Origin: Eledone cirrhosa
Lineage: Eukaryota
DNA length: 64,000 nt
Assembly (NCBI GenBank): GCA_964016885.1
Contig: OZ024740.1
Location: 5,518,001-5,582,000, forward strand
Direction of reading: 5' to 3'
The notes beneath the pieces were generated by a model. It ran no database searches and had not been told where the DNA came from. It was given only the letters and a program-made list of their open reading frames with translations. The translations under genes and the position numbers were made by a program. This document shows, in pieces, positions 1,331-64,000 of this stretch (its first letter is position 1; every line of letters begins with the position of its first letter).

Positions 1331-1537
1331 AACATATCTAACCTATGCTAGTGTGGAAGATGGACATTAAACTAAGATGATGATGATGATGATGATATAA
1401 ACAATGAGTTATATGGTTTGCTGATTATTCAACAGGTTAATTTTACAACAGATTAGAAGCACTCTACAATATTTATCTGGAGTATCATTAATATTAAGAA
1501 TATTAATAAATGGAAAATATTTTTATAAAACCATATT

Positions 1538-1598
1538 TATTTTATTATACGTATTTCAAAGGTGCTAATATTTAAGTAAGCTTTCATCAGATAAAATA
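1538..1598 (-). ncRNA. Type I hammerhead ribozyme (family A, inverted copy)
   Basis: The reverse strand reads TATTTTAT-CTGATGA-...-GAAA-TACGTA-TA-ATAAAATA. Confidence 0.65.
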
Positions 1599-1719
1599 TA
1601 ATAATTGATGGATAGTGACATATCTTCATGTGAATTTAATGGTATAAGCCCATATCTTCATTGAGCTTATACCATTACATTCACATGAAGATATGTCACT
1701 ATCTTAACACCAAATATTA

Positions 1720-1780
1720 TATTTTATCTGACGAAAGCGTACTTAAATATTAGCACCCTTGAAATACGTATAATAAAATA
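1720..1780 (+). ncRNA. Type I hammerhead ribozyme (family A)
   Basis: TATTTTAT-CTGACGA-(AAG...CTT imperfect stem II)-GAAA-TACGTA-TA-ATAAAATA: 8-bp stem I, palindromic stem III, AUA cleavage triplet. Confidence 0.7.
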
Positions 1781-1837
1781 AATACGGTTTCATAAAGATA
1801 TTTTCCATTTATTAATATTCTTAATATATGAATATAT

Positions 1838-17582: not shown

Positions 17583-20134
<2,552 letters not shown>

Positions 20135-20231
20135 ATAATAATAAAATTGAAGACTAAAATCCAAAGAGGGCTCGATAAGGAAAATATATATCAAATATAT
20201 AAGAACCGTAGAGCAAATATTTATTAAAATA

Positions 20232-20307
20232 ACAGATTAAAGTTTAAGCAAAGAATCGCTGCTTTCACCCTTAACGGGATCTTCTGAAACTAACAAAGTC
20301 AATCTGT
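20232..20307 (-). ncRNA. Type I hammerhead-like ribozyme in the PLE 3' region (family B, variant core)
   Basis: Minus strand: ACAGATTGA-ctttgtt-AGTTT-CAGAAGA-T-CCC-gttaa-GGG-T-GAAA-GCA-gcgattctt-TGC-TT-AAACT-TTAATCTGT. All three stems pair; core has U4A; triplet is CUU. Confidence 0.65.
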
Positions 20308-21219
20308 AAACGCAGAACTGGATATTTAAAAAAACGTTGCAACCGGAGGAAGACAGGAAGACGATACTTTGGTTCGTGGTAACGTTCGCTGGCAAAGAAC
20401 GGGAAAAAACGAATAATACGTCATTAATAGGAGCGGTGAAAAACAATTACGCGCAAAGACAAAACCACGTTTATGGTATAAAAGAGGTCGTAGACTAATG
20501 TTCTCTTAGGTGGTGCATAGAGACGTTCTCTGGCAATGAACGAAAAAACGAAGATAATAAGTCATATGTGGAGCGTGGAGAACAATAGCACGCAAAGACA
20601 AAACCACGTAAATGGTATAGCAGAAATCGTAGACTAAAATTCTAACTAGGAGACCAAATGAATCTCCGCTACAGAGTTAAGAACAAAGTAAATAAATACA
20701 ATACGGAAGTAATAGGAACAAATAAATACATACACGCAAACAGATACGTACATACACAAGCATACGCAAAACCTTACCATGGGTATACAAAACCACGCAC
20801 ATATAAATATGTGTGTGTGTGTATGCTTGTGTACAAATAAATAAATAATTATATAAACGTATATAAGTAAATAAATACGTATATAACAAGCGCACACGCA
20901 TACCTACATATAAATACACGAATGTTCGGAGACGTAAGTCAACTAAAACAAGAAGTACACGTATACACACACCCACCATACGTACGAACCTGCACACTCA
21001 CGCGGACGCAAAACTCCCGTATACACATAGCCAAACCCTAAATACCAGAATATGTAAAAATGATACGCTATAACAGTCAAATATACGTACGAGAAGGTAT
21101 ACATACCTTCACAAAACATACGGGTAATATATACTTACCTATGCAAATACGTAAAGGAATAAACAAAACATATACTTAGCTCCCACATCAAGACGTAAAA
21201 TATCCACGTATAGATCGTG

Positions 21220-22354
21220 CTATCCGTTAGGGTATAACGTGGGGCTGTAATACAGGAAAGTTTTGTGCAATTTATGTTTACAAGCCGAAATTGCCTCAGA
21301 TTTTTTGTTTAAGATGTGGTCTGTAGCGTAGAGTATTTCCAGGGCCTCAGCGGCGCAGAGGTCACATGGTCTTTTATTTCCGTTATACGATCTAGCCCTA
21401 GCTAGGATCTCCCAGTGTAACTTATATTGGGTGTGGTTGTCTTTTAGACTCCAGATATAAGCTGAAAGTGACGTCATATTCCTTCTTAGAGGGTAACGAA
21501 AAGAATGGGTATGCATGTAAAGACGCTGCTTGAAACTATTGGCGGTTAACCCTATGTAGGCCCTACGGGACGTGGGTGTTACAACCTTACATTTGTAGAC
21601 AATGTTACTAGAGAGGCAATTCCCGGATAGGGGGCAATCAGTCCGATTCCTACAATTACAGTTAGTACTACCTACAGGGTTGCACGTGTTCCTACGGCTA
21701 GGTAGTTTAGCTAAATTTAAAGCTGTGATGTTATATGCAAGGTTAGGAGTAGTAGAGTAAGAAATTTTAATAGTATTTCTATTAAAAATTTTACTATATT
21801 TATGTGTAGGGGGGAAATGCTTCGTAATAAGGGAAAGAAAGATCTTAGCTAATGGTGTGGCCACCTCCATATTATATGGTGGGTTAAACCAACAAATGCG
21901 ACGGGATCTATTCCTTCTAGGTCTATTTTCGTACACTGTATATGCTACCTTATCGACAAATCCACTTCGAGCAAGAGCTTCATTGTAATAAGTGGAATGG
22001 TCGTTGAAAATGCGCTCGTTGGTGGAAAGACGGGAAAGCCTCAACGAAACGTTTCTTACCAGGTTCTTGGTTATGCTGGCAGGATGGTTGGAATGCTTAC
22101 TTATGTAATTAAGCGTATCATTCGGCTTTCTATACGGGTAATACAACCCATTCAATAAATTGAAGGTAACGTCGAGGTAATTAACGACCGAGAGATTGGC
22201 CTCAACCTGTCTAGAGAGGTTGAAGCCTTTAAAGAAGGCTGTGAGTTCTTTTCTGAACCTGTCGCAAGCACGAGGTCCGCACTTAGTCATGGTCAAAAGA
22301 CCATCGTCACGGTACAAACCACCGCCCGCGTTGGGGAATTCGTCCTTGATAGAG

Positions 22355-22357
<3 letters not shown>
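21220..22357 (-). CDS. PLE RT (C-terminal half) + GIY-YIG endonuclease, open frame, 5'-truncated
   Basis: Uninterrupted frame from FSIKDEFPN to PTLYPNG (about 378 aa); the N-terminal IYIY part of the listed ORF is microsatellite read-through. Confidence 0.85.
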
Positions 22358-22406
<49 letters not shown>

Positions 22407-22409
<3 letters not shown>

Positions 22410-22466
22410 AATGTAAGTATGTATGTATACGTACATACATATATGTATACAGACGTACAGTAGCAA

Positions 22467-22503
<37 letters not shown>

Positions 22504-22958
22504 TATATACATATGCATACAGGTACACATACATATATGCACGCATCAGTTTAGCCTACGTTTATTATAACGCCGGCCGCTTTGTTCGTTTGTTTGTCAA
22601 CAAAGCGAACAGCCTGAATTTATGCCATACGGTGTTAAGGCAACCACGTCACCTTTTTTTGTTCAACACTGACACAGGAACGATGTACTAATTTCAAGCT
22701 TGTTAGCTATCATCAGCACCGTTTACCCATCTGCCAGATAGTTGAACGTTCGAAAGTATATACTTTCCTTATGAAAATTAACGGCTGAGCAGCCTAATTT
22801 GCATATAGAGTGAGTTAAATCGGTCAGGCATACCGAAAACGATAAGTTGAAAAAAATGAAAACGAAATTTCATTTCTCACTCTTAGTATGGCACTTACTT
22901 AAATGTAAGTATGTATGTATACGTACATACATATATGTATACAGACGTACAGTAGCAA

Positions 22959-22995
<37 letters not shown>

Positions 22996-23414
22996 TGCAC
23001 GCATCAGTTTAGCCTACGTTTATTATAACGCCGGCCGCTTTGTTCGTTTGTTTGTCAACAAAGCGAACAGCCTGAATTTATGCCATACGGTGTTAAGGCA
23101 ACCACGTCACCTTTTTGTTCAACACTGACACAGGAACGATGTACTAGTTTCAAGCTTGTTAGCTATCATCAGCACCGTTTACCCATCTGCCAGATAGTTG
23201 AACGTTCGAAAGTATATACTTTCCTTATGAAAATTAACGGCTGAGCAGCCTAATTTGCATATAGAGTGAGTTAAAAAGGTCAGGCATACCGAAAACGATA
23301 AGTTGAAAAAAATGAAAACGAAATTTCATTTCTCACTCTTAGTATGGCACTTACTTAAATGTAAGTATGTATGTATACGTACATACATATATGTATACAG
23401 ACGTACAGTAGCAA

Positions 23415-23455
<41 letters not shown>

Positions 23456-24392
23456 TATACACATATGCATACAGGTACACATACATATATGCACGCATCA
23501 GTTTAGCCTACGTTTATTATAACGCCGGCCGCTTTGTTCGTTTGTTTGTCAACAAAGCGAACAGCCTGAATTTATGCCATACGGTGTTAAGGCAACCACG
23601 TCACCTTTTTGTTCAACACTGACACAGGAACGATGTACTAGTTTCAAGCTTGTTAGCTATCATCAGCACCGTTTACCCATCTGCCAGATAGTTGAACGTT
23701 CGAAAGTATATACTTTCCTTATGAAAATTAACGGCTGAGCAGCCTAATTTGCATATAGAGTGAGTTAAATCGGTCAGGCATACCGAAAACGATAAGTTGA
23801 AAAAAATGAAAACGAAATTTCATTTCTCACTCTTAGTATGGCACTTACTTAAATGTAAGTATGTATGTATACGTACATACATATATGTATACAGACGTAC
23901 AGTAGCAAGCATATATATATATATATATATATACATATATATACACATATGCATACAGGTACACATACATATATGCACGCATCAGTTTAGCCTACGTTTA
24001 TTATAACGCCGGCCGCTTTGTTCGTTTGTTTGTTAACAAAGCGAACAGCCTGAATTTATGCCATACGGTGTTAAGGCAACCACGTCACCTTTTTGTTCAA
24101 CACTGACACAGGAACGATGTACTAGTTTCAAGCTTGTTAGCTATCATCAGCACCGTTTACCCATCTGCCAGATAGTTGAACGTTCGAAAGTATATACTTT
24201 CCTTATGAAAATTAACGGCTGAGCAGCCTAATTTGCATATAGAGTGAGTTAAATCGGTCAGGCATACCGAAAACGATAAGTTGAAAAAAATGAAAACGAA
24301 ATTTCATTTCTCACTCTTAGTATGGCACTTACTTAAATGTAAGTATGTATGTATACGTACATACATATATGTATACAGACGTACAGTAGCAA

Positions 24393-24441
<49 letters not shown>

Positions 24442-25378
24442 TATACACATATGCATACAGGTACACATACATATATGCACGCATCAGTTTAGCCTACGTT
24501 TATTATAACGCCGGCCGCTTTGTTCGTTTGTTTGTCAACAAAGCGAACAGCCTGAATTTATGCCATACGGTGTTAAGGCAACCACGTCACCTTTTTGTTC
24601 AACACTGACACAGGAACGATGTACTAGTTTCAAGCTTGTTAGCTATCATCAGCACCGTTTACCCATCTGCCAGATAGTTGAACGTTCGAAAGTATATACT
24701 TTCCTTATGAAAATTAACGGCTGAGCAGCCTAATTTGCATATAGAGTGAGTTAAATCGGTCAGGCATACCGAAAACGATAAGTTGAAAAAAATGAAAACG
24801 AAATTTCATTTCTCACTCTTAGTATGGCACTTACTTAAATGTAAGTATGTATGTATACGTACATACATATATGTATACAGACGTACAGTAGCAAGCATAT
24901 ATATATATATATATATATACATATATATACACATATGCATACAGGTACACATACATATATGCACGCATCAGTTTAGCCTACGTTTATTATAACGCCGGCC
25001 GCTTTGTTCGTTTGTTTGTTAACAAAGCGAACAGCCTGAATTTATGCCATACGGTGTTAAGGCAACCACGTCACCTTTTTGTTCAACACTGACACAGGAA
25101 CGATGTACTAGTTTCAAGCTTGTTAGCTATCATCAGCACCGTTTACCCATCTGCCAGATAGTTGAACGTTCGAAAGTATATACTTTCCTTATGAAAATTA
25201 ACGGCTGAGCAGCCTAATTTGCATATAGAGTGAGTTAAATCGGTCAGGCATACCGAAAACGATAAGTTGAAAAAAATGAAAACGAAATTTCATTTCTCAC
25301 TCTTAGTATGGCACTTACTTAAATGTAAGTATGTATGTATACGTACATACATATATGTATACAGACGTACAGTAGCAA

Positions 25379-25417
<39 letters not shown>

Positions 25418-25535
25418 TATACACATATGCATACAGGTACACATACATATATGCACGCATCAGTTTAGCCTACGTTTATTATAACGCCGGCCGCTTTGTT
25501 CGTTTGTTTGTCAACAAAGCGAACAGCCTGAATTT
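22407..25535 (-). mobile_element. Tandem array of about 490-nt HHR-containing monomers (putative non-LTR retrozyme family C), about 6.5 copies
   Basis: HHRs at 22679-22723, 23135-23179, 23629-23673, 24113-24157, 24615-24659 and 25099-25143 (periods 456, 494, 484, 502, 484). Units differ mainly in internal (TA)n length; the 3' end abuts (TA)n. Confidence 0.88.
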
Positions 25536-25883
25536 TTTTCAACTTATCGTTTTCGGTATGCCTGACCGATTTAACTCACTCTATATGCAAATTAGGCTGC
25601 TCAGCCGTTAATTTTCATAAGGAAAGTATATACTTTCGAACGTTCAACTATCTGGCAGATGGGTAAACGGTGCTGATGATAGCTAACAAGCTTGAAACTA
25701 GTACATCGTTCCTGTGTCAGTGTTGAACAAAAAGGTGACGTGGTTGCCTTAACACCGTATGGCATAAATTCAGGCTGTTCGCTTTGTTGACAAACAAACG
25801 AACAAAGCGGCCGGCGTTATAATAAACGTAGGCTAAACTGATGCGTGCATATATGTATGTGTACCTGTATGCATATGTGTATA

Positions 25884-25914
<31 letters not shown>

Positions 25915-26029
25915 GCTTGCTACTGTACGTCTGTATACATATATGTATGTACGTATACATACATACTTACATTTAAGTAAGTGCCATACTAAGAGTGAGA
26001 AATGAAATTTCGTTTTCATTTTTTTCAAC
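25533..26029 (+). mobile_element. Inverted single monomer capping the family C array
   Basis: Reverse complement of one unit; starts and ends at TTTTTTCAAC, followed by (TA)n. Confidence 0.88.
25666..25710 (+). ncRNA. Minimal type I hammerhead ribozyme (family C)
   Basis: AACGGTG-CTGATGA-T-AGCT-aaca-AGCT-T-GAAA-CTAG-TA-CATCGTT: 7-bp stem I, palindromic CTAG stem III, GUA triplet (predicted cut after 25703). Confidence 0.85.
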
Positions 26030-26065
26030 CTATATATATATTTTTCTCTATCAAGGACGAATTCC

Positions 26066-26141
<76 letters not shown>

Positions 26142-26145
<4 letters not shown>

Positions 26146-26375
26146 TATAGACATAGAATATTCGAAAATATTCTGTATGTTTATAATAAACATTTTGAAG
26201 ACCTAATCGCTATAGAATAGAATACGTCACGTATTACAATTAGATTCTCGATAAAAGCAAGGGAAGTAATCTACGCGTTTCATTCTTATTAGAAATCTTC
26301 AGGACTACATATCCAGTGCTTTTATCGAGAATGACACAGCTAGAGACTTATAGAATACTTAGCTGTGTACAGGAA
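26142..26375 (-). mobile_element. Inverted partial monomer capping the family D array (contains HHR 26266-26308)
   Basis: Reverse complement of 26376-26606; hairpin centre CTGTGTACAG-gaa-CTGTACACAG; its 3' end ATTCA abuts (TA)n. Confidence 0.88.
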
Positions 26376-28500
26376 CTGTACACAGCTAAGTATTCTATAA
26401 GTCTCTAGCTGTGTCATTCTCGATAAAAGCACTGGATATGTAGTCCTGAAGATTTCTAATAAGAATGAAACGCGTAGATTACTTCCCTTGCTTTTATCGA
26501 GAATCTAATTGTAATACGTGACGTATTCTATTCTATAGCGATTAGGTCTTCAAAATGTTTATTATAAACATACAGAATATTTTCGAATATTCTATGTCTA
26601 TATTCACATATATATCGCTATTTCAGAGCATTTATTCCAATTTCTAATTTCTGCCGGACCGGCAACCGCTCTTTCAAACCAGTTCCTGTACACAGCTAAG
26701 TATTCTATAAGTCTCTAGCTGTGTCATTCTCGATAAAAGCACTGGATATGTAGTCCTGAAGATTTCTAATAAGAATGAAACGCGTAGATTACTTCCCTTG
26801 CTTTTATCGAGAATCTAATTGTAATACGTGACGTATTCTATTCTATAGCGATTAGGTCTTCAAAATGTTTATTATAAACATACAGAATATTTTCGAATAT
26901 TCTATGTCTATATTCACATATATATCGCTATTTCAGAGCATTTATTCCAATTTCTAATTTCTGCCGGACCGGCAACCGCTCTTTCAAACCAGTTCCTGTA
27001 CACAGCTAAGTATTCTATAAGTCTCTAGCTGTGTCATTCTCGATAAAAGCACTGGATATGTAGTCCTGAAGATTTCTAATAAGAATGAAACGCGTAGATT
27101 ACTTCCCTTGCTTTTATCGAGAATCTAATTGTAATACGTGACGTATTCTATTCTATAGCGATTAGGTCTTCAAAATGTTTATTATAAACATACAGAATAT
27201 TTTCGAATATTCTATGTCTATATTCACATATATATCGCTATTTCAGAGCATTTATTCCAATTTCTAATTTCTGCCGGACCGGCAACCGCTCTTTCAAACC
27301 AGTTCCTGTACACAGCTAAGTATTCTATAAGTCTCTAGCTGTGTCATTCTCGATAAAAGCACTGGATATGTAGTCCTGAAGATTTCTAATAAGAATGAAA
27401 CGCGTAGATTACTTCCCTTGCTTTTATCGAGAATCTAATTGTAATACGTGACGTATTCTATTCTATAGCGATTAGGTCTTCAAAATGTTTATTATAAACA
27501 TACAGAATATTTTCGAATATTCTATGTCTATATTCACATATATATCGCTATTTCAGAGCATTTATTCCAATTTCTAATTTCTGCCGGACCGGCAACCGCT
27601 CTTTCAAACCAGTTCCTGTACACAGCTAAGTATTCTATAAGTCTCTAGCTGTGTCATTCTCGATAAAAGCACTGGATATGTAGTCCTGAAGATTTCTAAT
27701 AAGAATGAAACGCGTAGATTACTTCCCTTGCTTTTATCGAGAATCTAATTGTAATACGTGACGTATTCTATTCTATAGCGATTAGGTCTTCAAAATGTTT
27801 ATTATAAACATACAGAATATTTTCGAATATTCTATGTCTATATTCACATATATATCGCTATTTCAGAGCATTTATTCCAATTTCTAATTTCTGCCGGACC
27901 GGCAACCGCTCTTTCAAACCAGTTCCTGTACACAGCTAAGTATTCTATAAGTCTCTAGCTGTGTCATTCTCGATAAAAGCACTGGATATGTAGTCCTGAA
28001 GATTTCTAATAAGAATGAAACGCGTAGATTACTTCCCTTGCTTTTATCGAGAATCTAATTGTAATACGTGACGTATTCTATTCTATAGCGATTAGGTCTT
28101 CAAAATGTTTATTATAAACATACAGAATATTTTCGAATATTCTATGTCTATATTCACATATATATCGCTATTTCAGAGCATTTATTCCAATTTCTAATTT
28201 CTGCCGGACCGGCAACCGCTCTTTCAAACCAGTTCCTGTACACAGCTAAGTATTCTATAAGTCTCTAGCTGTGTCATTCTCGATAAAAGCACTGGATATG
28301 TAGTCCTGAAGATTTCTAATAAGAATGAAACGCGTAGATTACTTCCCTTGCTTTTATCGAGAATCTAATTGTAATACGTGACGTATTCTATTCTATAGCG
28401 ATTAGGTCTTCAAAATGTTTATTATAAACATACAGAATATTTTCGAATATTCTATGTCTATATTCACATATATATCGCTATTTCAGAGCATTTATTCCAA
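26376..28500 (+). mobile_element. Tandem array of 310-nt HHR-containing monomers (putative non-LTR retrozyme family D), about 6.9 copies
   Basis: Exact 310-bp period (GTCTCTAGCT at 26401, 26711, ... 28261); HHRs start at 26440+310k (k=0-6); no differences seen between copies; ends in (TA)n. Confidence 0.9.
26440..26482 (+). ncRNA. Minimal type I hammerhead ribozyme (family D)
   Basis: GTAGTC-CTGAAGA-T-TTCT-aata-AGAA-T-GAAA-CGCG-TA-GATTAC; distal stem I extension ATTCTCGATAAAAGCA/TGCTTTTATCGAGAAT (16 bp); GUA triplet (predicted cut after 26476). Confidence 0.87.
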
Positions 28501-29030
<530 letters not shown>

Positions 29031-29042
29031 GATATATATATA

Positions 29043-32000
29043 TCATCACCGTTTTACGTCTGTTCTTCCACGCTAGCATGGGTTAGACGGGTTGTCCTGT
29101 TGTGGGCAGTGTCTGGTCGGCTGACCATGCCTTGCTCATACAGGAACTGATTTGGCTTGATTTCTACAACTGGATGTTCTTCCTAACACCAACCTCATTT
29201 ACAGTGAGTGCTGGGTGCTTTTTCGTGGCGCCTACACGTCCACTTTACAGTGTGGGCTGGGTGCTTTTTTGCCGTGGCACCTCCACGACCACCTTGCAGT
29301 GAGAGGTGTGGGGGCATATTGTCTATATGCTTCAGCTTGTACACATGGGAGGTTGGGTACTCTGTATTACTGCGTGACGCCAGAGGTCACGGTCGTGTGT
29401 TATCGCCTTGGAGAGGTGTAATTGTGTAAGGTCAGCTTTTATCACCTCATCCCAGGTCATCTTGGGTCTCCACAGGCCGCGGTTACCATCGACTTCTAGT
29501 GCTCTGCACCTTTTTATGCAGCTGTCATCCTTCATACGCATCACATGTCCATACCCACGCAACCGCCTCTCCTGCACACAGCATTTGATTCCTCCTATGC
29601 TCAGTCTCTCTCTCAATTCATTTATGCTTTGTCGGTCGCGTATATTACTATTACACATCCATCGGAGCATGCAGGCTTCGTTTCTCTCTAATCTACTAAA
29701 CTAAAATGTTTCTACAGAGCCCTCCCAGAGATTGGTGGTACTTGTGGCTGTTTGCTGCTTGCTGTCTCAGCACAGCTGCTGCATGTGAAGCCTACATTCT
29801 TAATTAAGCTTCCTGAGATCCCGCTACATCTATTGTGTACCCATTGTTTGCATTTGGTGCAGAGAATGGAGTTCCTACCTACACCTTTCCTACATACTGA
29901 GCAAGGCCATTTCCTTGAGGGTTCTGGGTTCTGTTTTCTCGTCTACTTACAAGGACCTTAGTCTTTTTCATGTTGACTTTGAGACCCTTTCTTTCTAGTC
30001 CCTGCTTCCAAGTTTGGAATTTCTTCTCTAGTTCTACCATAGATTCAGCTATAAGTGCGAGGTCATCAGCATACAGGAGTTTCCATGGGCATCCGGTCTT
30101 AAACTCCTCCGTTATTGCCTGCAGGACTATGATGAACAGGAGAGGGCTAAGAACAGAGCCCTGGTGGACACCAACCTCTATGCTAAATTCCTCGCTATAC
30201 TCATTGCTAATCCTAACTTTGCTGACTGCTCCCCTATACATGGCTTGTACAGCTTTCACAAGCCATTCATCTACTCCTAATTTTCTAAGAACCCCCCAGA
30301 TTATAGCACAGGGAACTCTGTCAAAGGCTTTCTCGAGATCGACGAATGCCAGGTAGAGTGGCTTACTTTTAGCTAGGTACTTTTCCTGTAACTGCCTCAC
30401 AAGGAAGAGGGCATCAGTGGTGCCTCTTCCTGGTACAAACCCAAATTGCATCTCATCTAGTTTCACCTGGTCCCTAATCAACTGTGCTATAACTCTTTCT
30501 GTTACTTTCATGACCTGGTCCATCAGCTTTATACCTCTATAGTTTCCTCTATCGAGTGCATCACCTTTACCTTTAATGATACTACTGCACCAATCTTTTG
30601 GTATGACACCTTCTAGTATTACCTGGTTAACAATACGCGTGATTATAGTGTGACCTACAGACCCAGATGCCTTCAGCATCACGGCAGCTATACCCGATGG
30701 ACCGGTTGCCTTCCCCATCTTCATATCTTTGATTGCCTTACTTACTACGTTGCTGCTGACTTGTACTGCTGGCCCCTCTATAGGGTCTACTTGGGGTAGG
30801 GTCTCTTCTTCCCATGCATTCTCCTCAGTTAGTAATCTATCATAATGACTCTTCCATGCATCTTTCTTCTCAGCACTTCTGAGGGCAAGCTCACCTTTAT
30901 CATTCCGGATACACTTCTCTCCAATGACATCACGATTCTCTCTGACACACTGCCTCGCAATCTTGAACACCTCCTGTTTCTGGTCCTCTCGTTGCAAAAC
31001 ATGCTTGAATTTTCTATCCTCTGCTTCCCTCCTAGCTAAGTATACTTGTCGCCTAGCTTCCCTCTTGGTCTCTATGTAATGTACCCTGCTCCCCCCGTTC
31101 TTCCATTCTTTCCATGCCTGTCTCTTGGCCTTAACTGCTTCATCTACCTTATTGTTCCACCACCAAGTCATTCTCTTCCTGCTTGTGGTCTTACTCCAGC
31201 CACAGACCTCATCCGTCGCCTCTAGTAATTTTCTTTTTTAGTAACTCCCAGTGCTATTCTACATTGAATGTCTCTATCTGTTCTTCTTTACTGTCGTAGG
31301 CGTTGAGTAAAATATCTTTAAATCTGTTACTGGCTGAGGGGTCTTTCAGCTTCCAGATCTTTCTTCTCCAGGTTGGCCTCTGTTTCCAGGTTCGTCTGGT
31401 TCTGACCGTGAGGTCGCTGACAACTAAGCTATGTTGGGAGGTACATTCCTCACTAGGGAAGGCTTTTGTGTTTACGACCGTCCATCTGTCACGTCCTCTG
31501 ATGGGGATAAAATCTACCTGACTAGAATGCTCCCCTGATATATAGGTGATCAGGTGGTTGTCAGGTTTTTTGAAGTTTGTGTTACATATCGACATGTCAT
31601 TGGCGTCGCAGAATTCTAGAAATCTGAATCCTTCTTCAATTCTTGTGCCAACCCCATGGCCTCCATGGACTCTATTGAAGCCGTCACAGTGTTTACCTAC
31701 GTGTTCGTTAAAATCTCCTGCATTGATTAGGAAGTCATTGTCGTTTGTTAGAGCAGTAGTGTGCATTAGGAACTCGTAAAACCTATCCTTAAGTTCGTCT
31801 GGCAGCCCCGATTGGGGTGCGTAAGCTGATATTATTGTGGTAATTGTTTTATTCAGGACTAGTCTGAGTTTAATGATTCTTGCATTTACCCTGTACACTG
31901 AGATTACTTTATCTACCCACTTGTCAGCTAGTAGTATACCTACACCACCCATCCCATCGTCATTTCCCACCCAGAAAAATTTGTAGCACTGACTTTTTCC

Positions 32001-32605
32001 TACAAGGACTCTAGCAGACCCTCCTCTCCATCTAGTCTCTTGCACACAGCATACATCAATTTCCTTTCGCTCTAGCATTTCTACGATTTCTCCTGCTCTT
32101 CCTTTCATTGTGCTTACATTGATGGGGTTTTACACTCGGAGTTTTGGGCATTTGTCGACACTCGTAGGGAAGGGTCGATTTTTGCAAGGGTGTGTGTGTG
32201 CTTCCTTTCTCTGGATTGGGGCTTCACATGGGTGCTTGGTAGCTCGCGGATTCATATTCATTTCATCTATTAATTCAGAGTTGCTCCAATTTATTCTCAG
32301 CTCATCCATACATAACGGTAGGAAAATTCAGGGCTAGAAGAACAGTGGTGGTGGTAATAATGGCAGGGTGTGTTGGGTTGGGACGGCGGAGGAGAGAGTT
32401 AGGTAGTAGTATTAGTAGTAGAAGAAATGGCATGCTGAGGTTTGATTGGTCGAATAGGCTATGGTGGCGGGAAGGAAATTGTGAGGTAGGCAGTGAGGGT
32501 CGCCGTCAAGGCTAACAAAGTAGCCGATAGAATACAGCAACAATAATAGCCAGTCATGGCCTGTAGCCTGTGATGGAAAAATAGACAGATTGAGAATCAG
32601 CATGT
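29043..32605 (-). mobile_element. Near full-length decayed RTE-clade LINE
   Basis: APE ORF 31254-32108 (NV.TM, CCVQETRW, SAYAPQ, SQH), RT ORF 29879-31171, PHD finger, C-terminal ORF 29332-29670 and 3'UTR; putative 5'UTR to about 32605, homologous to 60970-61105. Confidence 0.9.
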
Positions 32606-33359
32606 TAGGGGAAAATGAGGATAACAAAATAAATGGGCACTACAACGCTATTAGCTGTCAGTCCAGTGGAAAACAGGCGAAGGTGACGTCACTCGTCAAC
32701 ATCGTTTATTTCCGTATTACTACCACGCGTAAGTGGAGTTTTCACGCGTTTTTTTGAGAGAGAGAGAGGGAAGAGGAGAGATAGGGAAGACTTAAAAGGG
32801 CCAAATTAGAAAACAAATAGAAAAAACAAATAGAAAACAAGTCATGGTTATGAAGCATATCGATGTAAGTGGAGTTACTTAAATGAAAATATAGGTGGCC
32901 CTTAAAAGGGCCAAATTAGAAAACAAATTGAAGTTAATTAGAAAACAAGTCATGGTTTTCAATGTAGAAAACAAGTCATTCATGTGGGTATGGTGTGGCG
33001 TGCGGTGGCCGGAAGCGGGGGAGTGCTCGACCGGAAGGGTGCTTGGCTGGAAGGATGCTCGACCGGAAGGGCCAGCAGATGTGCCTCTCTCTAATGGTGA
33101 CCAGCAACGGTGTGGACGCGAGTTCTGGCAGCTCCCGGTGTTAAGGAGCTGGACGCACGCGGAAGAGGAGAAACTAGCAGTGGAATTTAGTGGCGCCTAT
33201 GAAAAGCGGTAAGTGAGATAGCTTTTTCTAACTACAAGCTATTTCGGCACTGGAAACAGATCTGATTGAAAAAAAAAAAAAAAAAAAAAAAAGCTACTGG
33301 AAAGACAGAGAGGAGTCTGTTGTTGTTTTTTTATCACGTACCGCAAGACAAATTAGAAG

Positions 33360-34121
33360 ATGGCAACAAGACTACGAACAAGCGAAGCGATCAGGGCATT
33401 TACCGGTGAAGGTGATGTTGTTGCTTGGCTGCGAAAAGTCCGGCTGGTCGCAAGCTTGCAGAAGATAGAAGATGTGGCTGGCCTCATGGCACTGTACCTC
33501 GAGGGGGACGCGTTGGTACTCTTCCTTGAGTTGGACGAACACAGCTAAAGAGATGCGCAAAAGATTGAGAGGCGCATGATGGAAGCATTCGCAGAGGGAC
33601 CGTTAGCCGCTTTCGTTAAGCTGGCAAGAATTAGATTGAACGGTGAACGCGTCGACATTTTCGCAGCGGAAATACGGCGATTGGCCATGTTAGCTGGATA
33701 TCAGGTGGAATGCGAACGCACGGTGCGGTTGGCGTTCATACATGGATTTCCAGACAACATAGCGGTGAAACTGCAGCAAGTCCCGGGTTACAAAGAAATG
33801 GAAATATGTTCACTGGTGGAACAAGCTCGGATCATAGCAGAAGATGCCAAGAAGAGTGTTGCGGCGATAGCAACTACAGAGGCTCAAGACAGCTGGCAGC
33901 GAAATGGTGAAAGGGAGGCAACCACGGCACGCGATCGCCCGCGAACGTTTAGAGGTCGCTGTTTTCAGTGCCAAGGCCCGCACATGGCTAGAGACTGCAG
34001 AGAGTCAAGGCCGGAAATAATATGCTACCGGTGTAAGCGACCAGGCCACATCGCTATTAACTGCGACCAGGGAAACGATCCAAGGGGAACTACTGCGCCG
34101 GTAGTTGCCCCTTACGACTAG
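33360..34121 (+). pseudogene. gag: Gypsy gag with two CCHC zinc knuckles (one in-frame stop)
   Basis: CFQCQGPHMARDC and CYRCKRPGHIAINC; stop at 33546-33548. Confidence 0.85.
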
Positions 34122-36910
34122 AGGCGCTGTCCGTGGTGGAAGTCTTCGTGAGGAGAAAGCCACAGCGAGCCCTCGTGGACACGGGCTGTACGACGACACT
34201 GGTGACCGCGGGGGTGGAGAGAAAAGAGCAGCGTAAAGGCAGTCGACGGCAGGAAAATTGAATGCCGAGGTCGCAGCGAGATGGAAATAGCGGTACGGTG
34301 AAGGAAAATAAGGCTTTCTGCCATCGTAGTAGACAGCGTGGTGGATGGGATCGGCGTGGTTATGGGCAAAGACGCAATTGGTCGTCTAGGAGGCGTCACA
34401 GTGAACAACGTCGGTGTGTTGTTTGGCGCCGCTGCATCGGTATGCGCTGTGAGTACGCGACAGGAGAACCAGAAGGCCCACGAGGAGAAATACCCCGCTT
34501 ACACTGTGCAGGACAAAGACTTCAAGGCCGTGTTCGATGGGCAGCGATGGATTGTTGAGTGGTACTGGAAGGGAGAACCACCAACACTGAAGACCAAAGT
34601 GGGCTGCTATCAACACACATTGAGGGGAAACATCAGGAGCAATTTCGAGCGAGAGGTAGAGAGATGGATTCAGGAGGGCATACTGCTTCCCTGGAAAGAG
34701 GTGAAGTGCGGAATATTGCCGTTAATGGCGGTGGAGCAACCCACGAAGAACAAGGTGAGGCCGGTGCTGGACTTTCGGGAGGTGAACGACCACATGTCAT
34801 GCCACACAGGTGGCGAGGTCACGGATGTCTGTGGGGAAACCCTGCGTGAGTGGAGACGCATGACGGGGGGGGGGGGGGTCAGCAATCGTATATCTAAAGT
34901 CGGCATACTTGCAATTGCATATAGATGAGAAGCTCTGGCAGTAGCAGCTGGTCAGGTATAAGGGCCGGACATATTGCCTGACCAGGCTCGGTTTCGGTCT
35001 GAGCTCCGCACCGAAGATCATGGCGGCGGCCCTCAAAACCATTCTGGGAAAGGCCGACAAGATGAAGTGGGCCACTAGCTCCTACTTTGACGAAATCCTA
35101 GTGGACGAGTCTGTGGTGTCGCCGGCGGAGGTCACGAGCCATTTACAAGGGTATGGACTGGCTGCGAAGCCGTGAGAAGCGTTGGAGGGAGGAGCCGCGC
35201 TGGGACTTAGGCTACGGCGAGACAGGACGGGCGTCTTGGTATTCCAGAGGGGAAATGAAGTTCCAGAACTGGGCCCAAGTATGAGTAGGCGGGAGCTTTT
35301 CTCGGTGTGTGGAAAGTTGGTGGGTCACTACCCGATTGCTGGGTGACTCCGGAAGCATGCAGCTATGTCAAGAGACGAGCGGGAGGGGTGACAGAGTGGG
35401 AGAGAGGACGGTGGCCATGATGCAGGAGATCGTGGGGAGGGTCAAGGCCGACGACCCAGTGCGGGGACGCTGATATGTTCCCAAATCACAGAGCGGGACC
35501 GTATGGTGCGATGCCAGCAGCATAGCGCTGGGTGTCACGTTGGAGATAGAAGGTGTTGAGGTCGAGGATGCAGCCTGGCTTAGGAAGAAGGACGACTGCA
35601 ACCACATCAATGTGGCTGAACTGGACGCAGTGTTGAGAGGGGTGAACCTCGCCCTGAGGTGGGGACTGCGCACCATCGAGATACGCACCGACTCGGCTAC
35701 TGTACTCGGATGGGTGAGATCAGTGCTCACCAGTGAGAAAAGAGTGCGAACGAGAGGGGCGGCGGAGATGCTGATAAAGCGCCGCCTGGGAATTTTAGGA
35801 GAGCTGGCCACCGAGTTCGACCTGAGGCTGAGCGTAGTTTTCGTGCCCTCAGAGAAAAATAGGGCGGACGTCTTAACTATGGTGAAGAAAGCCTGGATGG
35901 AAGCGCCGGAGGAGGTAGAAGATGAGATAGCTGCCGTGTGTCGGCTGACCGAGTCGGATCTGAAAGGGTTGCATGACATGCACCACATGGGAGTGGAGAG
36001 GAGCCTGTTCCTAGCCAGGAGAATCGACTCGGACGTTAACAGACACAGTGTTCAAAGGGTGGTTAGAGGCTGCGTCCGATGTCAGTCCATTGATCCCGCT
36101 CCGCGTGTGCACGAAACGGGAAGCCTCCCGGTGGATCGCGACTGGAAGCGATTAGCGGTGGATGTAACGCACTACCGGCAGGGAACGTACCTCTCGATGG
36201 TCGACTGTGGACCAGGACGGATGGCGATATGGAGGGAGATGAAGACTGGAACGGCCGAGGAAATCATGCGGACGTTGAGAGAGGTGTTCTTGGAGTGGGG
36301 CCCTGTGGACGAACTGCTGATGGACAACAACGCAGCATTCCGCTCGGAGGCGCTGAGGGAGATGATCGATGGATGGAAGGTGGACCGTTTCTTCAGAGCA
36401 GCGCTCAGGCCGTGCGGGAATGGAATTGTGGAGCGACACCACCGGACGATCAAGGCAATGGCGGAGCGGGGCCATATCTCACCAATGGAGGCAGTGTTCT
36501 GGTACAACATGTCCCCTCGGGTAGGACAGGTCGAGGAATCGGTGCCACACAGAGCAGTATTCAAATACGAGTGGCGGCACCTGTGCGCGCCACCACAACG
36601 GCCAGTGGGGAGAGAGAGTGCATTTGTGCAGGTGGGCGAAGAAGTCTGGGTTAAGTCCCCAGATGCACGTTGCACATCTCAATGGGGAAGAGGAACGGTG
36701 ACGGCCGTAAATTCCCAGAACAATGTGTCCGTGGACGGAGTACCACGTCATGTCCTGGATGTCCGTAGAATCCCTGTGTCAACGGACTCCGAGGAAGAGG
36801 AAACCCAAAGTGCCGCCCCAACACTGCGGAGATCGCAAAGAAGTCGCAAACCACCAACCTGGACAGCAGACTTTCATATGCAGAAGGACGAGGGGGAAAT
36901 TGATCCTTGA
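34122..36910 (+). pseudogene. pol: Gypsy pol (protease, RT, RNase H, integrase), disrupted
   Basis: ALVDTGC protease; RPVLDFR, LGFGL and YFDEIL (RT); WCDAS/ELDA/TDS (RNase H); HH..CxxC, AVD, MDN and NGIVER (integrase). Confidence 0.88.
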
Positions 36911-58756: not shown

Positions 58757-60235
58757 GAGAGAGATTTATCTAGTCCTTCGCTCAAGATTAATCTATAAGT
58801 TTAGATGTCTGCCTTCGTTTAAGTAAATATTACAGTAAGATTTTTAATATAAACAACTACAAAAAACAATTAATATTAAAACGAAAAAATTATCAATGAT
58901 AAAAGAAGCGGATGCAACTTTTTTTTTTATAAAGTTATATTCCTGTTTCTTTAAAGAACATTTCATTTTTGTTCTATTGTAGGCGAAATAATGCAATGGT
59001 TTAATAGGGAAGATATAACTTACGAATTATGTCTCTAACCGTGTAACGCTTTTTAAGTAGATAACTACAATTGAAAATACTAAAGAAATGGAACCAACAA
59101 TTCAATTTGAAAGTCGTCTAGTGACAGTGTATTACTGGTACTTTATTTTATCGACCCCGTAACGATGAAAGGCAAAAATGCAAATGCTTAAAATTTAAAT
59201 TGCCTTAATTCTATCGTCTGCTGTTTCATTAAAGGGAGATTCTCGTCTGTATTTAATTCTATCGTCTACTGTTCCACTAAACAGATATACCTCCACTATC
59301 GTCTCTATTTATACATTTTAACTTATAACTTATACACATTTGATTTGAAATATTTTATCTAGTCCCCCCTCTCAATATTATGATGATTTCTTTCGAATGA
59401 AACAGTTCTAGTCCTGTAGAAGCCATTTATATATATAATTGAACTGAGTTAAAAATTCACAATATTTATAATTAAATAAGCTCATATATATATGTGTGTA
59501 TTTATCTGTTTATTGTATTATATATAATGTGTGTATATACAGGATGTCCCCCAAAAATATATACACACTTCAACAGCATTCTAATAACTATTGCCTGTAC
59601 AGGTGATCAAAGTGTCAATCGAATGTTAGTTTCGTGTTTTAACAGTACAAATTTACAATACACACATAAAACCAGTGTATATACATACATGAGTGTGTAT
59701 ACACATACATGAATGTGTATATACAATATATATGTATATATATATATATAGACACATATATTCACGGTGCAACGGTACATTAAAATATAGATGCGGGAGA
59801 GGGGGGGTGTATATATAGGGGCGCTGGGGATAAAGGAGTGTAAAGCGTGTGTAATTGATATATTGAAGGAGAGGAGCGTGCAGCGATAGAGTAACAAATA
59901 TATAGAGAGGGGGAGAGATGGTATTGAAGGGGAGGAGTGCAAAGCGAAAGAGTAAGAGATATAAATAGAGACGGAACAGATAGAGAGAAACAGGCGTAAG
60001 TAACAGTGGAAGAGATATAGAGAGAGGTACTCTGATTGGTTGAAAATTAGCCAATGACATACGATCACCACCACCACGGCTATCCCCGAAAAATTTTTAG
60101 AGAAGCTAGGCATATATGTTAGAACACGAAAAGTGAACATTCTGTTGGTTCACACTTTTCGTGTTCTAACAGATACATACATACATATATATATATACAT
60201 ACATAGATACATGCATACATATATATATATCATAT

Positions 60236-60317
60236 ATTAATAAATGGAAACTATATTTATAAAACCATATTTATTTTATACATATTTCAAGGGCCACCGC
60301 TTTCATCAGATAAAATA
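60236..60317 (-). ncRNA. Degenerate family A hammerhead/pLTR fragment
   Basis: The minus strand reads TATTTTAT-CTGATGA-AAG..CTT-GAAA-TATGTA; homologous to 1500-1598; the stem I/III junction is damaged. Confidence 0.5.
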
Positions 60318-63701: not shown

Positions 63702-64000
63702 TATATATATGAATGTATATATAGTGTATTTTGCAATACACTGTATGCTTAATTAAAAGCATTTTGAAGACCATGTTTTAAAGTAGCGCCATTGTCGCTT
63801 ACTTAAATTTTAGGCAGACAAGGGGAGATAAGTTGACAGCGCTGTTTCGTACTAATTGGCAGATGGGGGAGAGTACTGAGTTTTGACAAGTACCAATTAG
63901 TACGAAACAGCGCTGTCAACTTATCTCCCCTTGTCTGCCGAAAATTTAAGTAAGCGACAATGTCGCTACTTTAAAACAATAGCGTATGGTCTTCAAAATG
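63702..64000 (+). mobile_element. Retrozyme/pLTR-like element (family F) with inverted 5' head; continues past the window end
   Basis: 63760-63859 is the reverse complement of 63893-64000 (with an indel); contains an HHR; the 3' motif is homologous to family D. Confidence 0.75.
63858..63939 (+). ncRNA. Extended type I hammerhead ribozyme with U3-A8 core variant (family F)
   Basis: GGCAGAT-GGGGGAGA-gtact-GAGTT-TTGACAA-GTAC-caatta-GTAC-GAAA-CAGCGCTG-TC-AACTT-a-TCTCCCC-tt-GTCTGCC; GUC triplet (predicted cut after 63917). Confidence 0.78.

What the first reader, a model, noticed from the sequence alone, without database searches (positions are those of the whole stretch)
22407..26029. About 490-nt retrozyme-like array with an internal microsatellite and a full-monomer inverted cap
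Seen: six minus-strand HHRs plus one plus-strand HHR. Monomers span 456-502 nt and differ mainly in an internal (TA)n. Extra hairpins include CGCTTTGTT...AACAAAGCG and AAGGTGAC..GTTGCCTT. The inverted cap is one monomer long. The terminal copy has a CTAG to TTAG change in stem III (22691). From my recollection of the literature, the monomer is longer than the roughly 170-400 nt usually reported for metazoan non-LTR retrozymes.
Basis: partly seen in the sequence, partly recalled or inferred. Interest (0 to 1): 0.75.

Follow-up and report, generated by a model that had tools for sequence, protein, structure and literature searches.

The report
Hammerhead retrozyme array with Penelope-type ends
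A non-coding repeat of about 490 bases carrying a self-cutting 'hammerhead' RNA motif was pasted into a TA microsatellite in the pattern that Penelope-like retrotransposons leave; it is a new family of a known kind of animal parasite repeat, and its ends hint at how such repeats move.

Summary
Unit length is not unusual: a 2026 preprint reports retrozyme units of 51-972 bp. The array sits in the TA centre of a short 5' inversion of a truncated Hydra-clade Penelope-like element (RT-GIY-YIG frame, 21220-22356). A second, unrelated 310-nt hammerhead array with its own inverted cap lies next to it. Both arrays have Penelope-type ends: (TA)n flanks, an inverted arm, and outer ends 53 and about 30 nt apart in the unit. 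The unit is not the neighbour's terminal repeat, which carries a different hammerhead. One public run holds 5,021 variant contigs of it. Best reading: a non-autonomous Penelope-mobilised retrozyme with a dimer-type hammerhead, inserted as a ready-made multimer. Cleavage, transcription, circles and the mobilising clade (Hydra or Neptune) are not shown. Earlier scan notes describe similar architectures in other genomes, but no look-alike sequence.

The parts
20022..20131 (.). (TA)55 tract at the 3' end of the truncated Hydra element
20132..21219 (-). 3' untranslated region of the Hydra-clade Penelope-like element; no significant similarity to the 490-nt or 310-nt unit
   Evidence: blastn; local alignment against 200 shuffles
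20246..20286 (-). The Hydra element's own type I hammerhead: long stem III, U-U at the base of stem II, core change U4 to A (probably inactive, inferred), about 114 nt from the element's 3' end
   Evidence: relaxed scan
21220..22356 (-). 5'-truncated Hydra-clade reading frame (P0001, 378 aa, no stops): RT motif YRDD, thumb, CxCX5C linker, GIY-YIG endonuclease
   Evidence: model residues 250-353 match I-TevI at Z 9.4, rmsd 2.4, 89 aligned
22357..22406 (.). (TA)25 tract, left flank of the array and likely priming end of the long arm
22407..25535 (-). Direct arm: about 6.4 head-to-tail units of 456-502 nt, 35-36% GC, non-coding; outer end at nt 271 of the unit counted from the cleavage site
22686..22716 (-). 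Terminal hammerhead with the stem III palindrome broken (G22691A); predicted dimer helix -0.2 kcal/mol against -4.8
23142..23172 (-). Intact type I hammerhead: 7-bp stem I, U-U then 4-bp stem II, palindromic CUAG loop III, GUA cleavage triplet; the same at 23636-23666, 24120-24150, 24622-24652 and 25106-25136
23849..23977 (-). Example of the internal TA-rich block (about nt 142-261 of the unit; pure TA tract 23911-23933), folds as long hairpins
25532..26029 (+). Inverted cap: one unit plus 12 nt, intact hammerhead at 25673-25703; outer end at nt 324 of the unit, 53 nt beyond the direct arm's end
26030..26069 (+). Inverted copy of the Hydra element's 5' truncation end (26 bp identical to 22331-22356, plus a short TA run); reads in frame in the Hydra RT register
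26069..26142 (.). (TA)37 tract between the two arrays
26143..26375 (-). Inverted cap of a second hammerhead array (hammerhead at 26272-26302)
26376..28501 (+). Second array: 6.9 identical 310-nt units, each with a type I hammerhead (U-U at stem II base, palindromic CGCG loop III); no significant similarity to the 490-nt unit (best alignment is the ribozyme core)
28500..28845 (.). Long (TA)n tract, right flank of the second array

Best explanation
The 490-nt unit is a non-autonomous Penelope-type retroelement (an animal non-LTR retrozyme). SHOWN: a non-coding tandem array with an intact type I hammerhead per unit, an inverted arm, (TA)n flanks, two different outer ends, and a diverse many-variant family in one public run. 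INFERRED: minus-strand transcripts are multimers. The weak stem III forms only when two hammerheads pair through the palindrome ACUAGU, so multimers would be cut to units, which a host ligase may close into circles that are slow to re-cut. A (TA)n-targeting Penelope-like protein (Hydra or Neptune clade) nicks both strands of a TA tract and primes cDNA from each at two internal start sites, nt 271 and nt 324. One cDNA ran 6.4 units and the other one unit; they were joined head to head over 4 nt. Both cross cleavage sites, so the template was an uncut multimer or a re-ligated circle. The target was the TA centre of an older Hydra insertion's 5' fold-back, itself centred on TATA in that element's own RT codons. 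The internal microsatellite may be a former target site captured with a parent element's 3' end.
For: Hammerhead anatomy and chance control. Non-coding: longest ATG frame 48 aa minus, 83 aa plus; no tRNA. The minus strand folds better than shuffles even without the TA block (z -5.6; plus strand -3.2). Dimer helix -4.8 kcal/mol; monomer stem III probability about 0; dimer cleavage by such motifs is described. Tandem plus inverted 5' copy plus an optional 30-40-bp tail is the Penelope signature. A purified Penelope-like protein cuts and extends both strands, starts at two internal sites that define the tail, and mostly uses uncut RNA. Both arrays show such offset ends, 53 nt and 26-36 nt. Hydra elements target (TA)n. 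Other animal-derived loci show several hammerhead-bearing ends piled into successive TA tracts. Run X1: 5,021 contigs laid, 1,224/1,654/1,739/404 by identity band; the 4 variants inside the ribozyme fall at N7, loop II and two stem I positions, none in the core.
Against: No cleavage, RNA or circle was observed. The absence of core variants is not significant (about 13 core sites at 20 variable sites in 376; chance about 0.5). Of 21 family variants, 10 are unpaired, 1 keeps and 10 break predicted pairs, with none compensatory, so the fold outside the ribozyme has no covariation support. Stem I competes with another pairing (probabilities 0.18-0.80); the 111-nt ribozyme domain alone has z -2.0. 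Units are not identical and units 4 and 6 are exact duplicates, which fits later duplication or a mixed multimer better than one circle. 0 of 48 Hydra 3' hammerheads have a palindromic tetraloop, so the neighbour's clade need not be the mobiliser. In the 2026 preprint only 1 of 9 predicted retrozyme dimers cleaved. No other genomic insertion of this family was seen.
Confidence: 0.72

Rival explanations
1. The unit is the terminal repeat (pLTR) of a coding Penelope-like element elsewhere in the genome, and the array is an abortive, frame-less insertion of it rather than a self-propagating family.
For: 24 of 57 Xenopus retrozyme families match annotated elements, 21 of the 22 being Penelope-like, at their termini. 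Palindromic-tetraloop hammerheads lie 3' of a Neptune-like frame and just before (TA)n in L097 and, weakly, L088 (both from one assembly). No host genome was available to exclude it.
Against: The adjacent Hydra element has an unrelated 3' end and its own hammerhead. In run X1 the share of laid contigs running on into unlike sequence was 0, and the 6 loose ends shown for X1 mostly read as unit variants (8 of 109 rows shown; contigs are about 100 nt and the TA block was not covered). 6.4 seamless frame-less units need a short-unit template.
Confidence: 0.12
2. A single copy inserted and was expanded in place by unequal crossing-over, as a minisatellite; the ribozyme plays no part.
For: Units 4 and 6 are identical and share a private base. 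The 2026 preprint offers local amplification as one route.
Against: Two unrelated arrays each have 6-7 units, an inverted arm and tail-like offset ends. The 310-nt cap holds only about 230-240 nt, so a whole unit had to come in with the long arm. Some later duplication is compatible with the main reading.
Confidence: 0.08
3. One compound event: a Hydra reverse transcriptase began on its own RNA on both strands and jumped to the retrozyme RNA at the TATA run in its coding region, so the array and the truncated element were inserted together.
For: Both arms switch from Hydra sequence to retrozyme sequence at the same TA run; the right copy keeps the Hydra reading register up to the junction.
Against: It needs two independent jumps at one site. 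Self-priming at palindromes is described for Penelope-like elements, and a later hit in the resulting TA centre explains the same picture with known steps.
Confidence: 0.06
4. The array or the cap is an assembly artefact.
For: Tandem and inverted structures trouble assemblers; the 310-nt units are 100% identical.
Against: The 490-nt units carry distinct variants and TA lengths; the junctions show 1-4 nt microhomology in the known pattern; the unit exists in public runs X1 and X4.
Confidence: 0.02

Closest known systems
Animal non-LTR retrozymes (Cervera and de la Pena 2020, PMC7229834; Li, Clavereau and Pollet 2026, 10.64898/2026.07.22.740005)
   Same: Non-coding tandem units under 50% GC, one type I hammerhead each, self-paired predicted circle, about 7 units (75% of families have at most seven), co-occurrence with Penelope-like elements. 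The palindromic tetraloop is as in axolotl HHR_Amex1 and the U-U at stem II is as in HHR_Amex2.
   Different: New sequence family with an internal microsatellite. The hammerhead is dimer-type, whereas the review says most invertebrate retrozyme hammerheads work as monomers. Flanks are (TA)n with no readable target-site duplication. Inverted arm and tail-like offset ends are not mentioned for retrozymes in the parts I read. Expression and cleavage are not shown here.
Hydra-clade Penelope-like elements (Craig et al. 2021, PMC8557442)
   Same: The neighbouring frame has the CxCX5C linker, the CxxC and CxH motifs, and homologs of about 700 aa with RWK and DKT-type motifs; (TA)n target; 3' hammerhead. 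U-U at stem II occurs in 14 of 26 Hydra rows of their File S2 (counted by eye) and in 24 of 48 loci here.
   Different: The 490-nt unit has no reading frame and no similarity to the neighbour's 3' end; its stem III is a palindromic tetraloop, seen in 0 of 48 Hydra 3' hammerheads.
Non-autonomous Chlamys elements such as MRC1 (PMC8557442, passage)
   Same: [quoted passage not shown]
   Different: Green-algal, generally similar to their autonomous partner at the 3' end, and mostly without hammerheads.
Poseidon element of Anolis (PAc; Frangieh et al. 2024, PMC11167929)
   Same: Two internal start sites giving a tail, priming on both strands at AT-rich DNA without homology, uncut RNA as substrate: the mechanism borrowed here.
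   Different: Autonomous, a different clade, tail of 30-40 bp against 53 nt here; its mechanism was not tested on this RNA.

Membership tests
Animal non-LTR retrozyme | Type I hammerhead in each tandem unit, at least two consecutive | tested here: met
   6 of 6 full units, 5 with intact loop III
Animal non-LTR retrozyme | Unit length in the reported range | tested here: met
   456-502 nt: above 150-450 bp, within 51-972 bp
Animal non-LTR retrozyme | Non-coding, GC under 50%, no LTR pair | tested here: met
   GC 35-36%; longest ATG frames 48 and 83 aa; no tRNA; primer-binding site and polypurine tract were not searched separately
Animal non-LTR retrozyme | Stable self-paired circular fold | tested here: met
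   Circular MFE -147 to -167 kcal/mol, z about -8.5 with the TA block; z -5.6 without it; no covariation support
Animal non-LTR retrozyme | Multi-copy family | tested here: inconclusive
   5,021 variant contigs in run X1 show a diverse family in organism A; no host genome was held to count loci
Animal non-LTR retrozyme | Self-cleavage | not testable with these tools
   Needs an assay
Animal non-LTR retrozyme | Expressed as linear and circular RNA | not testable with these tools
   No raw RNA run could be laid
Animal non-LTR retrozyme | Target-site duplication when present | tested here: inconclusive
   Flanks are (TA)n, so none can be read
Penelope-type insertion (non-autonomous) | Head-to-tail copies with an inverted 5' copy | tested here: met
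   Both arrays
Penelope-type insertion (non-autonomous) | Optional 30-40-bp tail at one end | tested here: inconclusive
   Offsets of 53 nt and 26-36 nt, one locus each
pLTR of the adjacent Hydra element | Sequence identity with the element's 3' end | tested here: not met
   No blastn match; best local score 27, reached by 10 of 200 shuffles; different hammerhead
Hydra-clade PLE (frame at 21220-22356) | C-terminal GIY-YIG, CxCX5C linker, CxxC and CxH motifs | tested here: met
   Motifs read in P0001; I-TevI Z 9.4
Hydra-clade PLE (frame at 21220-22356) | RWK and DKT motifs in the N-terminal RT | tested here: inconclusive
   That part is truncated here; RWK and ADKT-type motifs are present in homologs
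Hydra-clade PLE (frame at 21220-22356) | Placement in the Hydra clade by phylogeny | not tested
   No tree with reference elements was built; assignment rests on motifs and a by-eye comparison

The most novel reading that the evidence does not exclude
The locus records reverse transcription of a circular retrozyme RNA by a (TA)n-targeting Penelope-like enzyme. The cap would be one lap round a unit circle, stopping 12 nt past its own start, and the two offset ends would be fixed internal start sites. Retrozyme arrays would then be inserted ready-made with the Penelope tail signature, possibly by the Hydra enzyme whose fragment frames the array. The internal (TA)n would be a captured former target that shows how a retrozyme is born from a Penelope 3' end.
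Probability: 0.2. Interest if true: 0.65.

Novelty: new member of a known kind. Interest (0 to 1): 0.4.

Why it matters
Which enzyme moves animal retrozymes, and whether arrays arrive ready-made or grow in place, is left open in the papers read. Here two young, unrelated arrays show the Penelope insertion signature side by side with a Hydra fragment. That gives concrete predictions: start sites at nt 271 and 324, dimer-dependent cleavage, and loss of it in the terminal variant. These can be tested by a genome census and by the published in vitro Penelope assay. The element itself is of a known kind.

Tried and rejected
No host genome was held, so copies were not counted. Run search: no RNA holder listed; this says nothing on expression. 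20 runs in 15 studies held part of the stretch, but only 4 runs were laid: X1 5,021 contigs, X4 3 contigs, X19 0, X23 0 (no test); the unlaid shares are not used as evidence. An exact ribozyme pattern found nothing in metagenome or viral contigs. Neither unit nor the neighbour's 3' region matched any of 97 Hydra-like loci by blastn. Pfam gave nothing for P0001 and one RVT_1 hit below cut-off among 5 homologs. PDB sequence search gave nothing; Foldseek gave nothing at E 0.001; viral contigs held no relative. Rfam microRNA hits on the TA block are composition artefacts, all below gathering. No convincing Neptune-like frame in the window (one hit, E 0.003). Rejected: 'unusually long unit'; 'one-unit cap as a rule'; 'unit is the neighbour's pLTR'; junction reads as a test for circles. 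Paper searches found no description of retrozyme arrays with inverted caps in (TA)n; the library lacks most subscription journals, and the 2026 preprint's supplements were not seen and may list similar families.

Full report
OBSERVATION. The array is real and as described. A type I hammerhead scan finds six minus-strand motifs and one plus-strand motif, with cleavage-to-cleavage spacing of 484, 502, 484, 494 and 456 nt. A stricter descriptor finds 17 motifs in the window and none in any of 100 shuffles. Each motif has a 7-bp stem I, the core CUGAUGA, a U-U then a 4-bp stem II, GAAA, a palindromic CUAG loop and a GUA triplet. The terminal copy carries G22691A. The cap (25532-26029) is one 486-nt unit plus 12 nt and shares four bases with the long arm. 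Outside the TA tract the units differ by a few events: unit 1 has three changes, unit 2 has a deletion of about 34 nt and a two-base change, and units 4 and 6 are identical and share a private base. Rfam does not recognise the motif at its cut-offs.

Directly downstream on the minus strand lies an open frame of 378 residues (21220-22356). It has 671 longer relatives; the 120 listed are 665-751 aa at 39-47% identity. Its model matches GIY-YIG nucleases at the C-terminus (I-TevI Z 9.4, rmsd 2.4, 89 aligned; T4 EndoII Z 7.5) and, more weakly, reverse transcriptases at the N-terminus (Z 5.8). It has the CxCX5C linker and the CxxC and CxH motifs that Craig et al. give for the Hydra clade, which targets (TA)n; I built no tree. 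Its 3' region ends at (TA)55 and holds its own hammerhead with a U4-to-A core change. That region is unrelated to the 490-nt unit. The last 26 bp of the truncated element recur inverted at 26044-26069, beyond the cap. Read in frame, this copy and its short TA run give [12 protein letters not shown], which fits the register of 82 Hydra-like frames (Y or F at -15, L or I at -14, L at -13). So the TA centre probably began as the element's own codons (inference). Beyond (TA)37 lies a second array of 6.9 identical 310-nt units with its own inverted cap of about 230-240 nt, ending in a long TA tract. It shows no significant similarity to the first; the best alignment is the ribozyme core.

THE ENDS. 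Counted on the RNA from the cleavage site, the long arm ends at nt 271 and the cap at nt 324, 53 nt apart. For the 310-nt array the offset is 26-36 nt. All four outer junctions meet TA sequence with a few bases of overlap, three of them with one mismatched base. Tandem copies, an inverted 5' copy and an optional 30-40-bp tail are the described Penelope signature. The purified anole protein cuts and extends both strands, starts at two internal sites that bound the tail, needs no homology and mostly uses uncut RNA. I infer the same steps here.

THE RIBOZYME. In context stem II is stable, stem I is partly competed (0.18-0.80), and stem III does not form in the monomer. The palindrome gives a -4.8 kcal/mol helix between two copies, against -0.2 for the terminal variant. 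Such motifs are described as dimer-dependent. Of 97 Hydra-like loci fetched, 84 had the C-terminus and at least 150 nt downstream; 13 were dropped. Of the 84, 48 have a sense hammerhead there and 3 an antisense one. Of the 48, 24 have the U-U and none a palindromic tetraloop. Six palindromic-tetraloop motifs occur elsewhere in the 97 loci; 5 of 6 lie within 150 nt of a TA tract and 3 of 6 follow coding sequence that I read as Neptune-like, one being the query itself and all three from one assembly. The unit therefore mixes a Hydra-like and a Neptune-like trait, and the mobilising clade stays open. Several of these loci show different hammerhead-bearing ends stacked in successive TA tracts, so pile-ups like this one are ordinary for such elements.

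THE FAMILY. Four of 24 listed runs were laid on 23467-23910. Run X1, whose kind is not on record, gave 5,021 contigs spread over identity bands (1,224 at 99% or more, 1,654, 1,739, 404). X4 gave three; X19 and X23 gave none. Summed depth is not a copy number. Of 21 variant rows, four lie in the ribozyme: loop II (48%), N7 (36%), and two stem I positions (7% and 35%). None lies in the core, but that alone is not significant. Mapped on the predicted circle, 10 variants are unpaired, 1 keeps a pair and 10 break one, with no compensatory pair. The share of X1 contigs running on into unlike sequence was 0, which is weak evidence against an attached reading frame, because the contigs are short.

MECHANISM. 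Shown: anatomy, nesting, ends, family diversity. Inferred: minus-strand multimeric transcripts; dimer cleavage and possible ligation to circles, as for mussel and axolotl retrozymes; two-strand priming at a TA tract by a Penelope-like protein; head-to-head joining. Both arms cross cleavage sites, so the template was an uncut multimer or a re-ligated circle. The mixed units favour a multimer or later duplication for the long arm; the identical 310-nt units and the one-lap cap are what a circle would give, but each is a single case. The internal TA block begins about 140 nt after the cleavage site. In the Hydra loci a TA tract typically follows the hammerhead start by about 60-165 nt (read), so the block may be a captured former target; this is speculation.

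COMPARISON. It works like an animal non-LTR retrozyme and meets the sequence criteria; cleavage and circles could not be tested. Its length lies above the 150-450 bp of the 2020 paper but within the 51-972 bp of the 2026 preprint, which also derives retrozymes from Penelope terminal repeats and found cleavage in only 1 of 9 dimers. My searches found no account of retrozyme arrays with inverted caps and tails in (TA)n; coverage is limited.

WHAT I SAW OF EACH PAPER. 10.64898/2026.07.22.740005: parts 1-3 of 5, no supplements. PMC7229834: parts 2-4 of 6. PMC8557442: passages, section 11, supplement parts 1-2 and one supplement search. PMC11167929: abstract and parts 1-2 of 4. PMC4209133: abstract and part 1 of 4. 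PMC3846280 and PMC7761336: passages. The host is an animal by its repeat content; I did not determine the taxon. Earlier scan notes report similar Penelope-type arrays in other genomes; none matches this sequence.

VERDICT. A good catch of a known kind: a new retrozyme family with clear Penelope-type ends and an informative neighbourhood. Interest 0.4.

Noticed in passing
window 26143-28501: Second hammerhead array, 310-nt units, 6.9 identical copies, own inverted cap; the inversion junction reads as a perfect small hairpin on the plus strand, and both arms stop within 6 nt of the same point of the unit.
   Followed up: partly
window 1491-1827: Older inverted pair (90% identity over about 340 bp) with two type I hammerhead motifs (1546-1590 minus, 1728-1772 plus) and a longer palindromic stem III; related fragments near 60215-60317.
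   Followed up: partly
window 20246-20286 (-): The Hydra element's own hammerhead has U4 changed to A although its reading frame has no stops.
   Followed up: partly
window 20382-20643: Two diverged 139-bp repeats (80% identity) inside the Hydra element's 3' region, which at 1.1 kb looks long for this clade.
   Followed up: no
window 32873-32917 (-): Rfam histone 3' stem-loop hit exactly at gathering score, just before what looks like a Gypsy-type retrotransposon (frames 33549-36910); no histone frame was looked for.
   Followed up: no
window 17817-19990 and 29332-32129 (-): Two decayed LINE copies with endonuclease and reverse-transcriptase frames flank the cluster (family label RTE-like is from recall).
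   Followed up: no
window 63702-63772: A 71-bp stretch at 76% identity to the 310-nt unit, possibly an older relative.
   Followed up: no
L088, L091, L092, L097: Contigs filed in a bacterial genome assembly hold animal-type Penelope elements stacked in TA tracts, so they look like host DNA; L091 has a short hammerhead element with an inverted arm.
   Followed up: partly
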